From NCBI RefSeq assembly GCF_009931435.1, contig NZ_CP043414.1: a stretch of DNA of 64,000 bases. The stretch is one strand, 5' to 3'. The stretch comes from Escherichia coli. Its GTDB lineage: Bacteria > Pseudomonadota > Gammaproteobacteria > Enterobacterales > Enterobacteriaceae. Below are positions 51,201-54,200 of the stretch, piece by piece; within the stretch, counting starts at the first letter, position 1, and each line of letters begins with the position of its first letter. A program made the position numbers.

Positions 51201-54200
51201 GCGGGAGATAACCAGGTGAAAGGGATCCCCCTGAAACTGGTACGTCAGCGTGTCCGGGTGTTTAAAGCCAGTCCGTCAGGAAAAATGACGGCCAGGATCC
51301 GCGTTAACCGGGGCAATCTTCCCGCCATTAAGCTGGGGACAGCCCGGGTCAGACTGGCCCGGCGTGGTGGAAAACTGCAGTACCGTGGCAGTGTGCTGAA
51401 GGTGGGTAAATATCTTTTCCGGGATGCGTTTATTCAGCAACTGGCGAATGGTCGCTGGCATGTGATGCGGCGTATTGATGGCAAAAATCGTTACCCCATT
51501 GATGTGGTGAAAATCCCGCTGTCCGGACCGCTGACACAGGCATTTGAAGATGCCCGCGACCGCATCATTGCTGCGGAAATGCCGAAACAGCTGGGGTATG
51601 CACTGAAACAACAACTGAGGTTATGGCTGACCCGATGAACCGACATACACAAATCCGCCAGGCCGTACTGGCACGCCTTCGGGAACAGTGTGGAGACAGC
51701 GCCACGTTTTTTGACGGGCTTCCGGCATTTATTGATGCGCAGGAACTGCCTGCCGTGGCGGTGTGGCTGAGTGATGCTCAGTACACCGGAAAAATGACGG
51801 ATGAAGATGACTGGCAGGCTGTTCTGCATATTGCTGTCTTCATCCGGGCACAGGCACCGGATTCAGAGCTGGATATGTGGATGGAGAGCACCATTTTCCC
51901 GGCCCTGAATGATGTACCGGCACTTTCCGGACTCATCGACACCCTGATCCCACTCGGTTTTAACTATCAACGTGATAATGAGATGGCCACCTGGGCGATG
52001 GCGGAAATCACGTACCAGATCACGTACACGAATTAAGGAGGTGGTAATGACCACACCAAATCCACTGGCAAAGACGAAAGGTGCGGGAACGACGTTCTGG
52101 ATGTACACCGGCAAGGGCGATGCGTTTGCGAACCCTTTATCGGACACTGACTGGCTGCGTCTTGCGATGGTGAAGGATCTGCAACCTGGCGAAATGACCG
52201 CTGATGCAGAAGATGACACTTATCTCGATGATGAAGATGCAGACTGGAAAACGACAACTCAGGGGCAGAAATCCGTCGGTGATACTTCGGCGACGCTGGC
52301 CTGGCGTCCGGGTGACAGCGGACAGAAAAAACTGGTTCAGTTGTTCGACTCCGGTGAAATCTGCGCGTTTCGTATCAAATATCCCAACGGTACTGTTGAT
52401 GTTTTCCGTGGCTGGCTGAGTTCACTGGGTAAAACCATTGCCTCAAAAGACGTGATGACCCGCACCGTGAAAATCAGCGGTGTGGGGCGTCCGTATCTGG
52501 CAGAGGAGGGCACTGAAACCGTGGGCGTTACCGGGCTGACGGTGGCACCGGCATCCGCCAGTATCAATGTGGGAGCAACCACCACGCTGACCTTTACAGT
52601 ACAACCTGACGGAGCCAGTGACAAAGCGATCAGTGTGCATTCGACAGATCCACAGACAGCCACTGTGACCCTGAACGGACTTGTGGCCACGGTGAAAGGC
52701 GTGAAGCAGGGCAGTGTCAGCATTGTGGGCATGACTTCTGACGGCGATTTTGTGGCAGTGGCTACGGTGGCTGTCAGCGCCGCAGGTTAACAGGATGATA
52801 CTCATCATTTGCCCCGGTTATTCGGGGCTTTTTTGCAGGTGGAGAATATGATGTTTCTGAAACAGGGCACGTTTAATTATGAAAAACAGTCCGTGGTGCT
52901 CAGTGAGCTGTCCGGGCTGCAGAGAATTGAATATCTGGCGTTTGTTCAGCAGCGAACGGCAAAGTTTGATGCCGGGGAGGGAGAACTGTCGGAGGCTGAA
53001 CGACAGATTGCTTTTCTGCGGATGGGGATGGATATCAATGCCTGGCTGGTTTCCCGCTCACTGTGGAATGCGGATCAGTCTAAGGATGTAGAGACGCTTT
53101 GCGCCTCCGTTATTACAACATGGTCGTATGATGCCCTGGGTGCGGGGGCGGAGATGGTTCTGTCGCTGAGCGGTATGGGGGCCATTGATAATGCCGGGGA
53201 TGATGAGCATGAGGCGCTGACGCCGGAAAAGTCCTGACGCGGGAAATGCAGTTTGTCATGCGGCTTGCCCGGGAGTTCCGGCGGGCAGACTGGCGGCGGA
53301 TGCTGTCGGAAATGTCGGCCACTGAGCTTGGTGAGTGGGGCGATTATTTCCGGATGCAGAGCTTCAGTGATGTGTGGATGGATGCGCAGTTTGCCTCGCT
53401 GAAGGCATTGATCGTGAGAATGGTGTCCGGCAGCAGTGATGCTGCGGTGGCTGATTTCAGCCTTTTACCGGAAGAGAACGGGATACCGGAGCGAACGGAC
53501 GAAGAACTGATGCATCTTGGAGAAGGTATTTCCGGAGGTGTGCGTTATGGACCAGATAGCCAACCTGGTCATTGATTTGGGGATTGATGCGGCAGAGTTT
53601 AAAAATGAAATTCCCCGTATCAAAAACCTTCTGAATGGTGCCGCCAGCGATGCAGAACGGTCTTCTGCCCGTATGCAGCGTTTTATGGAGCGTCAGACTC
53701 AGGCCGCCCGGCAGACAACGCAGGCGGCTTCTTCGGCTGCAACAGCCGCCTCCGTCCATGCGCAGACGGTGGAGAAGAACGCACAGGCTCATGAACGCAT
53801 GGCCCGCGAGGTGGAGAAAACCCGCCAGCGCATGGAGGCGCTGAGCCAGAAAATGCGCGATGAACAGGCGCAGGCCATGGCTCTGGCGGAGGCTCAGGAT
53901 AAAGCGGCTGCTGCGTTTTATCGTCAGATTGACAGTGTGAAACAGGCCAGTGCGGGGCTGCAGGAATTACAGCGTATTCAGCAGCAGATCCGACAGGCCA
54001 GAAACAGTGGCGGGATTGGTCAGCAGGATTATCTGGCGCTGATTTCTGAGGTTACGGCGAAAACCCGTGTTCTTACACAGGCTGAGGAAGAGGCTACCCG
54101 ACAGAAAGTGGCGTTTATCCGTCAGCTTAAAGAGCAGGCAACCCGCCTGAATCTTTCATCTTCTGAGTTGCTTCGTGCTAAGGCAGCCCAGCTGGGGGTA

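What the first reader, a model, noticed from the sequence alone, without database searches (positions are those of the whole stretch)
53222..53250. Near-canonical G-T frameshift site
GGAAAAG at 53225-53231, three codons before the G stop, differs by one base from lambda GGGAAAG and leads into the T frame (-1).
Basis: partly seen in the sequence, partly recalled or inferred. Interest (0 to 1): 0.25.

Follow-up and report, generated by a model that had tools for sequence, protein, structure and literature searches.

The report
Phage tail chaperone G-T frameshift site
This is very probably where ribosomes translating a prophage tail-assembly chaperone gene occasionally slip back one base to make a longer G-T fusion protein, as in phage lambda; it is an expected feature, but it uses a weaker, non-standard slip sequence that a whole clade of phages keeps and that genome annotation misses.

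Summary
GGAAAAG lies at 53225-53231, read as CCG GAA AAG TCC TGA in a lambda gpG homologue (52848/52851-53237). The -1 frame, open from 53213, encodes a lambda gpT homologue. The shift can only occur within a 25-nt overlap, and this is the only slippery run there.

Comparative evidence supports a programmed -1 frameshift. All relatives examined, down to 45% T identity and including Gifsy-1, Gifsy-2 and Fels-1, keep an A_AAR lysine site at this exact position, 0-1 codons before the G stop in most (five codons in two). Of 80 loci, 60 have GGAAAAG and none has lambda's GGGAAAG. The ATG that annotators use as the T start (53246) is not conserved, while T-frame residues upstream of it are.

The core is therefore probably a tRNA-Lys slip from AAG to AAA, with only near-cognate re-pairing of tRNA-Glu (GAA to GGA). 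It is not a canonical X_XXY_YYZ tandem slip.

I found no conserved downstream RNA structure. An upstream Shine-Dalgarno-like enrichment largely disappears once amino-acid composition is controlled for.

Efficiency is unknown and probably low. Nothing has been shown experimentally. This is an ordinary G-T frameshift with a non-canonical motif, unannotated in E. coli records.

The parts
52848..53237 (+). gpG-like tail assembly chaperone gene. ATG at 52848 or 52851 (PGAP uses 52851); stop TGA at 53235-53237; 128-129 aa.
   Evidence: Pfam PF06894 Phage_TAC_2 at 2e-39. NCBIfam TIGR01674 phage_lambda_G equivalog at 1.2e-55. 33% identity to lambda G. PGAP names it 'phage tail assembly chaperone G'.
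53225..53231 (+). Proposed -1 slip site G_GAA_AAG. Frame 0 reads GAA AAG; frame -1 reads GGA AAA.
   Evidence: Read directly. It is the only slippery run in the 25-nt G/T overlap. It is conserved at the aligned position in 60 of 80 loci of T relatives, and the other 20 keep A_AAR. The replication set agrees.
53228..53231 (+). Invariant core A_AAG. The Lys codon AAG can re-pair as AAA after a -1 slip of the single E. coli tRNA-Lys(UUU).
   Evidence: Columns 4-6 (AAA) are invariant and column 7 is G or A in alignment A2 of 24 diverged representatives. A_AA.G is the most shift-prone tetramer in E. coli (PMC4066793).
53210..53212 (+). TGA in the -1 (T) frame. It sets the upstream limit of the window in which a productive shift can occur.
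53231..53575 (+). T segment of the predicted G-T fusion. First -1-frame codon after the slip is GTC at 53231; 114 codons to 53572; stop at 53573-53575. The predicted fusion is 241-242 aa with the junction ...ALTPEK|VLTREMQF...
   Evidence: Pfam PF06223 Phage_tail_T at 5e-15. TIGR01715 phage_lam_T at 3.6e-40. 38% identity to lambda T. Glu at T-frame position 6 (53243-53245, upstream of the annotated ATG) is invariant, including in lambda.
53246..53248 (+). ATG used as the T start in PGAP and most phage records. Here it is most likely an internal Met codon of the fusion.
   Evidence: Annotated as a start. The aligned codon is ATG in only 4 of 24 diverged representatives and is otherwise CTG, ATT, CTT, CGA and others. 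GGGA lies only 1 nt upstream, which is poor SD spacing (read from the sequence).
53211..53214 (+). GAGG, a weak Shine-Dalgarno-like tetramer 10 nt upstream of the heptamer. It is a possible but unsupported stimulator.
   Evidence: Anti-SD duplex energy is -5.6 kcal/mol, and 21-29% of control windows do as well. With synonymous-codon resampling, P = 0.47.
53547..56612 (+). Tape measure protein gene (gpH-like). It overlaps the 3' end of T and is the presumed binding partner of G and G-T.
   Evidence: Pfam TMP_2, Tape_meas_lam_C and TMP_4. PGAP annotation.
52047..52790 (+). Major tail tube protein gene (gpV-like, with a C-terminal Big_2 domain). It is the presumed partner of the T domain.
   Evidence: Pfam Phage_TTP_12 at 3.5e-66 and Big_2 at 1.4e-11.

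Best explanation
**What it is.** The site is the programmed -1 ribosomal frameshift site of a lambda-type tail assembly chaperone gene pair.

- Most ribosomes translate G (52848/52851-53237) and stop at TGA 53235, giving a gpG-like protein of about 14 kDa.
- A minority slip back one base on G_GAA_AAG (53225-53231), read GTC at 53231 next, and continue in the T frame to 53572. This gives a G-T fusion of 241-242 aa with the junction ...TPEK-VLTRE...

**Likely function.** By analogy with lambda, G and the G part of G-T coat the tape measure protein (53547-56612). The T part recruits the tube protein (52047-52790). Neither protein ends up in the virion.

**Likely mechanism.** The driving event is most likely the slip of the single E. 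coli tRNA-Lys (anticodon mnm5s2UUU) from AAG onto AAA. The preceding tRNA-Glu can re-pair on GGA only through a G.U at the middle position. The site therefore behaves as an A_AAG tetramer with partial P-site help, not as a canonical X_XXY_YYZ heptamer.

**Shown:** homology, frame geometry, conservation of the site, and lack of a conserved T start.

**Inferred:** that shifting occurs, which tRNA slips, the efficiency (probably at or below lambda's few per cent), and the roles of the products.
For: 1. **G and T are equivalogs of lambda G and T, in the order V-G-T-H**.

2. **Geometry.** T is in the -1 frame and open only from 53213. The 25-nt overlap holds this one slippery run.

3. **Conservation in diverged relatives.** Gifsy-1, Fels-1 and Gifsy-2 are only 68-70% identical in DNA. 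They still keep CCGGAAAAG(T/C)CCTGA at the same place, although the G C-terminal tail upstream differs.

4. **Wider survey.** The site is intact in all of 61 close IMG/VR loci. Among 80 loci down to 45% T identity there are 60 GGAAAAG, 14 GGCAAAA, 3 GGAAAAA, 3 AGAAAAG and no GGGAAAG. All keep A_AAR with Lys in the G frame. The G stop follows 0-1 codons later in all but two (L114 and L148, five codons). Eighteen further contexts behave the same way.

5. **Separate motif in the lambda clade.** Lambda-type T relatives keep GCGGGAAAG in all 26 distinct contexts.

6. **No conserved T start.** The annotated ATG is present in only 4 of 24 diverged representatives. The T-frame Glu upstream of it is invariant with wobble variation (GAA/GAG), which marks translation in that frame.

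7. **Prior annotation in Salmonella.** The Gifsy-1 and Gifsy-2 records already describe T as made 'by translational frameshifting'.

8. **Published support.** A_AA.G is the most shift-prone tetramer in E. coli, and tRNA-Lys is notably shifty (PMC4066793). The lambda G:GT ratio of 30:1 means a low-efficiency site is adequate (PMC5009743).
Against: - No experimental evidence exists for this phage group. Every E. coli and phage record inspected annotates T as a separate ATG-initiated ORF.
- The exact fusion sequence is absent from a collection of about 15 billion proteins.
- G_GAA_AAG gave 'mainly the 0-frame product' in a reconstituted E. coli system, where it served as the unfavourable control (PMC6924986).
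- The A_AAG tetramer without a stimulator is barely above background: 0.15% against 0.11% (PMC4066793).
- I found no stimulator here.
  - The downstream fold is not better than shuffles (z = -0.96).
  - There is no conserved or covarying structure.
  - The upstream GAGG is unremarkable.
- Conservation of the overlap is partly confounded by coding in two frames.
Confidence: 0.85

Rival explanations
1. T is made on its own, starting at ATG 53246 as annotated. This could occur by re-initiation after termination at the G stop 8 nt upstream. No frameshift takes place, and the heptamer is coincidental.
For: PGAP and all E. coli phage records inspected annotate T this way. The 109-aa product is on record on at least 1000 contigs. 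The ATG is kept in the closest E. coli relatives. The heptamer is a poor shifter in vitro.
Against: - The ATG is replaced by CTG, ATT, CTT, CGA and others in Gifsy-1, Gifsy-2, Fels-1 and most diverged relatives. In those the -1 frame still runs open into G, and the residues before that codon are conserved.
- Annotators disagree on the T start. The Ayreon record starts it 66 nt further downstream.
- The only SD-like sequence (GGGA) is 1 nt from the ATG.
- The A_AAR site is conserved at one fixed position across the clade, which this model does not explain.
- In lambda, T is made only as part of G-T (PMC5009743).
Confidence: 0.07
2. The frameshift is a classical tandem (two-tRNA) slip, as in lambda. 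The G.U middle-position pair of tRNA-Glu on GGA would be good enough, and a dnaX-like upstream Shine-Dalgarno contact about 10 nt 5' would raise efficiency to compensate for the weaker heptamer.
For: - Position 1 of the heptamer is G in most contexts, whichever codon it ends (CCG, CTG, GCG).
- Mean anti-SD affinity across 28 diverged representatives peaks 7-11 nt upstream of the heptamer. That is -4.0 to -4.6 kcal/mol, against about -1 to -2.5 at most other offsets and at most about -3 at any.
- Paired test: -5.36 against -2.55, p = 5e-6. Replication on 9 new lineages: -4.19 against -2.10, p = 0.014.
- The lambda clade shows no such enrichment.
- One E. coli subgroup (L085) has a perfect AAGGAGGTG 8 nt upstream.
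Against: - With the amino-acid sequence held fixed and codons resampled, most of the enrichment disappears. Expected values are -4.29 and -3.34; median P is 0.47 and 0.40; p = 0.018 and 0.15. It therefore mainly reflects the Glu/Gly-rich tail.
- In the window itself the GAGG is ordinary.
- The P-site codon is not conserved for re-pairing. GCA to GGC, and A/C_GAA variants, cannot re-pair.
- G at position 1 is also simply the preferred wobble base of those codons.
- The representatives are not phylogenetically independent.
Confidence: 0.2
3. The extra base is lost at the RNA level: RNA polymerase slips on the A-run. Some mRNAs would then encode G-T in a single frame.
For: The product would be the same. 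Transcriptional slippage is used in some bacterial and phage genes (PMC5009743).
Against: The run is only four A's here and four or five in relatives. Productive slippage needs longer homopolymers; this rests on established knowledge and was not tested here.
Confidence: 0.02
4. The tail module is a decaying prophage remnant, and the arrangement no longer has a function in this strain.
For: The window is a composite prophage carrying several IS elements, pseudogenes and Qin-like genes.
Against: The late operon from terminase to J is intact. The G-T region is 97-99.6% identical to that of viable phages (mEp460, cdtI, Ayreon, Tritos, phi458). This would affect current use in this strain, not what the site is.
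Confidence: 0.05

Closest known systems
Phage lambda G / G-T programmed -1 frameshift (G_GGA_AAG)
   Same: Homologous G and T proteins (33% and 38% identity; equivalog models pass). Same V-G-T-H order. T lies in the -1 frame overlapping the 3' end of G. The shift occurs at a Lys codon near the end of G. The junction residues are homologous (K-V-F-D-G-E in lambda, K-V-L-T-R-E here).
   Different: The heptamer is G_GAA_AAG, so the P-site tRNA (Glu) cannot re-pair cognately. The G stop is 1 codon after the Lys codon, not 5. The overlap is 25 nt against 64 nt. T is shorter and lacks lambda's C-terminal repeat. The 100 nt downstream in lambda fold better than shuffles (z = -2.76), whereas here they do not (z = -0.96).
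Gifsy-1, Gifsy-2 and Fels-1 G-T genes (Salmonella prophages)
   Same: Same clade, with the identical CCGGAAAAG(T/C)CCTGA site and position. The Gifsy-1 and Gifsy-2 records describe T as part of G 'by translational frameshifting'.
   Different: Only 68-70% DNA identity. They lack the in-frame ATG that leads annotators to call T a separate gene in the E. coli phages. The records do not name the heptamer.
Single-tRNA A_AAG tetramer frameshift sites in bacteria (Z_ZZN class; for example the CGA AAG site of Bacillus subtilis cdd)
   Same: The Lys codon AAG preceded by A is the only fully re-pairing element, and the P-site codon is not slippery (PMC4066793; cdd cited in PMC5009743).
   Different: In reporters those sites need a strong stimulator: 5.6% with the IS3 pseudoknot, about 0.15% without. 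No stimulator was found here.
E. coli dnaX frameshift (A_AAA_AAG with an upstream SD and a downstream hairpin)
   Same: The same shifty tRNA-Lys. GAGG lies 10 nt upstream, at the dnaX-like spacing (PMC6924986).
   Different: There is no downstream hairpin. The SD-like element is weak and not distinguishable from chance or amino-acid composition. The P-site codon is not AAA.
'twofour' (XXYYYY) motif class proposed by PRFect for tail assembly chaperone frameshifts
   Same: GGAAAA fits the pattern. The class was proposed from annotated TAC frameshifts that lack the XXXYYY motif (PMC10885494).
   Different: That class is a computational proposal based mainly on actinobacteriophages. It was not tested experimentally and is not linked to this clade.

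Membership tests
Lambda-type tail assembly chaperone pair with programmed -1 frameshift (G / G-T) | Upstream gene is a gpG homologue | tested here: met
   PF06894 at 2e-39 and TIGR01674 equivalog at 187 bits (cut-off 74). BLASTP against lambda G gives 2e-17.
Lambda-type tail assembly chaperone pair with programmed -1 frameshift (G / G-T) | Downstream ORF is a gpT homologue in the -1 frame, overlapping the 3' end of G | tested here: met
   PF06223 at 5e-15 and TIGR01715 at 137 bits (cut-off 77). The frame is open from 53213, giving a 25-nt overlap.
Lambda-type tail assembly chaperone pair with programmed -1 frameshift (G / G-T) | Located between the major tail tube gene and the tape measure gene | tested here: met
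   V-like 52047-52790, G, T, then H-like 53547-56612.
Lambda-type tail assembly chaperone pair with programmed -1 frameshift (G / G-T) | A slip-prone sequence inside the overlap, conserved among relatives | tested here: met
   A_AAR is invariant at the aligned position in all loci examined. GGAAAAG is present in 60 of 80.
Lambda-type tail assembly chaperone pair with programmed -1 frameshift (G / G-T) | T has no conserved start codon of its own | tested here: met
   ATG 53246 is matched by ATG in only 4 of 24 diverged representatives. The invariant Glu lies upstream of it.
Lambda-type tail assembly chaperone pair with programmed -1 frameshift (G / G-T) | G-T fusion protein actually made, at a few per cent of G | not testable with these tools
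   This needs a reporter assay, immunoblot or mass spectrometry. The exact fusion is not in the protein collection.
Canonical X_XXY_YYZ tandem-slippage heptamer | Both the P-site and A-site tRNAs can re-pair in the -1 frame with at most a wobble-position mismatch | tested here: not met
   G_GAA_AAG: Lys AAG to AAA re-pairs. Glu GAA to GGA requires a middle-position G.U. PMC6924986 describes it as a 'second-position mismatch'.
Z_ZZN tetramer (single-tRNA) -1 frameshift site | A_AAG in frame, with Lys as the zero-frame codon | tested here: met
   53228-53231. A_AA.G is the top tetramer in E. coli.
dnaX / IS-type stimulated -1 frameshift signal | Downstream hairpin or pseudoknot 5-9 nt after the motif | tested here: not met
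   Fold z = -0.96. RNAalifold on 24 representatives gives -1.5 kcal/mol with no covarying pairs.
dnaX / IS-type stimulated -1 frameshift signal | Upstream SD-like sequence 6-17 nt before the motif | tested here: inconclusive
   GAGG lies at 53211-53214 with a 10-nt spacer. It is ordinary in the window (21-29th percentile; P = 0.47 under codon resampling). At clade level it is enriched against other positions (p = 5e-6; replication p = 0.014) but only weakly after the amino-acid control (p = 0.018 and 0.15).

The most novel reading that the evidence does not exclude
A large clade of enterobacterial lambdoid phages (mEp460, cdtI, Gifsy, Fels-1 and relatives, present in about a third of complete E. 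coli genomes) programs its essential G-T frameshift on a bare A_AAR lysine slip. The P-site codon cannot re-pair, and no RNA structure is present. In vitro work uses exactly this sequence as a 'non-slippery' control.

If the clade nevertheless reaches a useful G:G-T ratio, some unrecognised context must set the efficiency. Candidates are the adjacent or near-adjacent stop codon, the weak upstream SD-like purine tract, or the nascent acidic tail. The contrast between clades (GGGAAAG with a distant stop, against GGAAAAG or GCAAAA with the stop 0-1 codons away) would then be a natural experiment on that context.
Probability: 0.2. Interest if true: 0.45.

Novelty: new member of a known kind. Interest (0 to 1): 0.27.

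Why it matters
**Practical.**
- The G-T fusion of this very common prophage tail module is not annotated in E. coli RefSeq or in the phage records inspected. The region was found in 1845 of 5426 complete E. coli genomes.
- T is named as a stand-alone 109-aa protein on at least 1000 contigs.
- Screens restricted to X_XXY_YYZ motifs would miss it (PMC4066793).

**Biological.** The site adds a well-conserved natural example of a -1 frameshift that rests on tRNA-Lys slippage alone. It gives a clean pair of homologous clades with different motifs for testing what sets low-level frameshift efficiency.

It does not change the picture of how siphophage tails are assembled.

Tried and rejected
1. **Downstream stimulatory structure: rejected.**
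   - The 100 nt after the site fold no better than shuffles (z = -0.96).
   - A window including the site has z = +1.10.
   - RNAalifold on 24 diverged representatives finds 4 invariant pairs, -1.5 kcal/mol and no covariation.
   - A local hairpin GCCCGGG...CCGGCGGGC starts about 35 nt after the heptamer, too far away to act.

2. **Upstream SD-like stimulator: promising at first, then largely explained away.**
   - It showed a positional peak, p = 5e-6 and replication at p = 0.014, and was absent from the lambda clade.
   - A synonymous-codon resampling control largely explains it by the amino-acid composition of the G tail.
   - It is not significant in the window itself.
   - It is kept only as a weak rival.

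3. **Transcriptional slippage: rejected.** The A-run is only 4 nt.

4. **Other slip sites in the overlap: none.** The sequence GGCGCTGACGCC has no repeat run.

5. **Literature.**
   - Full-text searches for GGAAAAG or 'GAA AAG' with frameshift, tail or phage terms found no paper describing this site in phages.
   - Xu, Hendrix and Duda 2004 (PMID 15469818), which tabulates slip sequences, and PMC3907469 are not held.
   - I therefore could not check whether this heptamer is already listed there.

6. **Exact look-up of the predicted 241- and 242-aa fusions: not on record**.

7. **AAAAAAG search in the annotated IS3 frameshift gene: no match** in 28842-30010. Not pursued.
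Full report
**What is there**

The sequence at 53225-53231 is GGAAAAG. It lies in the frame ...ACG CCG GAA AAG TCC TGA of an ORF starting at ATG 52848 or 52851 and stopping at 53235-53237.

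- That ORF is a lambda gpG homologue: Pfam Phage_TAC_2 at 2e-39, NCBIfam TIGR01674 equivalog at 1.2e-55, and 33% identity to lambda G.
- The -1 frame is closed by TGA at 53210-53212, then open from 53213 to 53572. It encodes a gpT homologue: Phage_tail_T at 5e-15, TIGR01715 at 3.6e-40, and 38% identity to lambda T.
- The neighbours are a gpV-like tube protein with a Big_2 domain (52047-52790) and a gpH-like tape measure protein (53547-56612), followed by M, L, K, I and J homologues.

**Where the window comes from**

The window is 100% identical to E. coli O157:H16 strain Res13-Lact-PEA12-26 (NZ_CP062876.1). It is a composite lambdoid/Qin-like prophage inserted in ynfG.

The G-T region is 97.4-99.6% identical to phages mEp460, cdtI, Ayreon, Tritos, phi458 and others. 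It occurs in 1845 of 5426 complete E. coli genomes.

**Is it more than chance?**

The heptamer alone is not special. It occurs 20 times in the window, against 9.9 expected. Position is what matters:

- A productive shift must happen inside a 25-nt overlap of about 6 codons.
- In the late operon, in-frame G_GAA_AAG occurs 3 times in 5958 codons and in-frame A_AAG 15 times.
- The chance of a hit in a given 6-codon stretch is about 0.3% and 1.5% respectively.

Conservation is much stronger evidence:

- Gifsy-1, Fels-1 and Gifsy-2 are only 68-70% identical in DNA and have different G C-terminal tails. All carry CCGGAAAAG(T/C)CCTGA at the same place.
- All 61 close IMG/VR relatives keep it.
- Among 80 loci with T identity down to 45%, the aligned heptamer is GGAAAAG in 60, GGCAAAA in 14, GGAAAAA in 3 and AGAAAAG in 3. 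It is never GGGAAAG.
- Eighteen further contexts add CGAAAAG.
- Across 24 diverged representatives the invariant bases are the second G and the AAA. A Lys codon preceded by A (A_AAR) is therefore universal.
- The G stop follows 0 or 1 codon later in all but two lineages.
- Lambda-type T relatives keep GCGGGAAAG in all 26 distinct contexts.

The two clades each maintain their own motif.

**Is T made on its own?**

PGAP and the E. coli phage records inspected annotate T as a separate ORF from ATG 53246. The Ayreon record starts it 66 nt later. The 109-aa product is on record on at least 1000 contigs, while the predicted fusion is not on record.

Several observations argue against an independent start:

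- The ATG is matched by ATG in only 4 of 24 diverged representatives. Elsewhere the codon is CTG, ATT, CTT, CGA and others.
- Its only SD-like sequence is 1 nt away.
- The T-frame Glu codon just upstream (53243-53245) is invariant with A/G wobble variation. It aligns with lambda's Glu in K-V-F-D-G-E.

The T frame is therefore translated upstream of the annotated start, which only a shift from G can provide. The Gifsy-1 and Gifsy-2 records say as much in their notes.

**Mechanism**

In the 0 frame the P and A sites hold GAA and AAG. After a -1 slip they face GGA and AAA.

- E. coli has one tRNA-Lys for both AAA and AAG, and it is notoriously shift-prone. A_AA.G is the best tetramer in E. coli (PMC4066793).
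- tRNA-Glu on GGA needs a middle-position G.U. Peng et al. call G_GAA_AAG 'unfavourable' and saw mainly 0-frame product in a reconstituted system (PMC6924986).
- Relatives tolerate P-site codons that cannot re-pair at all: GCA to GGC, and A_GAA or C_GAA.

I therefore infer that the tRNA-Lys slip is the core event and P-site re-pairing is dispensable or merely helpful.

Relatives with AAG or AAA directly followed by a stop fit the old 'slippery run plus shifty stop' arrangement (own knowledge: Weiss et al. 1987). In the window, one codon (TCC) intervenes.

The lambda G:G-T ratio of 30:1 (PMC5009743) means a low-efficiency site can suffice. The actual efficiency here is unknown.

**Stimulators**

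*Downstream.* None was found.

*Upstream.* GAGG sits 10 nt before the heptamer, the dnaX spacing.

- Across 28 diverged representatives the mean anti-SD affinity peaks exactly there.
- It exceeds other positions in the same genes: -5.36 against -2.55 kcal/mol, p = 5e-6.
- It replicates on 9 new lineages at p = 0.014.
- The lambda clade shows nothing similar.

When the protein sequence is held fixed and codons are resampled, however, the expected values are already -4.29 and -3.34. The median P is 0.47 and 0.40, and the residual p is 0.018 and 0.15. In the window itself the element is ordinary.

The enrichment is therefore mostly a by-product of the Glu/Gly-rich tail of G. I do not claim an SD stimulator.

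**Comparison and novelty**

This is a member of the lambda G / G-T frameshift family by every feature that could be tested. The exception is that the slip sequence is not a canonical X_XXY_YYZ heptamer; it is an A_AAG-type site.

The frameshift in this clade was already inferred by the annotators of the Gifsy phages, and a 'twofour' motif class has been proposed computationally (PMC10885494). I could not consult Xu et al. 2004 to see whether the heptamer is listed there.

Three things are modestly new:
- the clade-wide survey showing A_AAR as the invariant;
- the clean split from the lambda clade;
- the finding that E. coli annotation systematically misses the fusion.

**Verdict**

The feature is ordinary in kind with a non-canonical detail, and interest is low to moderate.

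Noticed in passing
window 52811-52836 (+): A terminator-like hairpin (GCCCCGG-TTAT-TCGGGGC followed by TTTTTT) lies in the 57-nt gap between the tube gene stop (52790) and the G start. The mEp460 and Ayreon records annotate it as a rho-independent terminator. It could lower transcription of G, T, H and later genes relative to the abundant tube protein.
   Followed up: partly
window 1-44000: The prophage is composite. An integrase at 3166-4329 (-) sits next to a truncated ynfG. Lambda-like exo/bet/gam and O/P-type replication genes are present. There are then Qin-type genes (hokD, rem, ydfT, cspB/F/I, essD, rrrQ, rzpQ, gnsB), two lysis cassettes, and IS1, IS3 and two IS66 copies. This suggests two lambdoid elements fused or nested.
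   Followed up: no
window 19228-19479 (+): A tRNA-Ile / tRNA-Arg / tRNA-Arg cluster lies downstream of the Q antiterminator gene. No phage-borne tRNA-Lys or tRNA-Glu is present that could influence the slip.
   Followed up: no
window 28842-30010 (+): PGAP annotates an IS3-family transposase here with a programmed frameshift (joined CDS), yet does not do so for G-T in the same window. The IS3 site is not A_AAA_AAG, since that pattern has no match in the interval.
   Followed up: partly
window 55490-55496 and 61250-61256 (+): Two further in-frame G_GAA_AAG heptamers lie inside the tape measure gene and the J gene. No overlapping conserved ORF is evident, so they are presumably incidental.
   Followed up: no
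L085 1170-1204 (also L093-L099): A subgroup of E. coli relatives (77% T identity) has a perfect Shine-Dalgarno sequence, AAGGAGGTG, 8 nt upstream of the same heptamer. Its anti-SD energy is -15.3 kcal/mol, stronger than any other window in the locus.
   Followed up: partly
L110, L116, L117, L136 (about 1198-1207); L120, L129, L258, L259: More distant relatives replace the site by CTG GCA AAA TAG, CTG GAA AAA TAG, GCA GAA AAG TAA or GCC GAA AAG TAA. The Lys codon then abuts the stop codon and the P-site codon cannot re-pair. This looks like a slippery run with an adjacent stop.
   Followed up: partly
window 48343-50370 (+): The head module uses a ClpP-like prohead protease fused to the major capsid protein. 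It overlaps the portal gene end by 56 nt.
   Followed up: no
L001 1222-1321 (lambda): The 100 nt downstream of the lambda G-T slip site fold better than shuffles (-41.4 kcal/mol, z = -2.76). The equivalent region of the window does not. I did not test whether this structure is conserved in the lambda clade.
   Followed up: no
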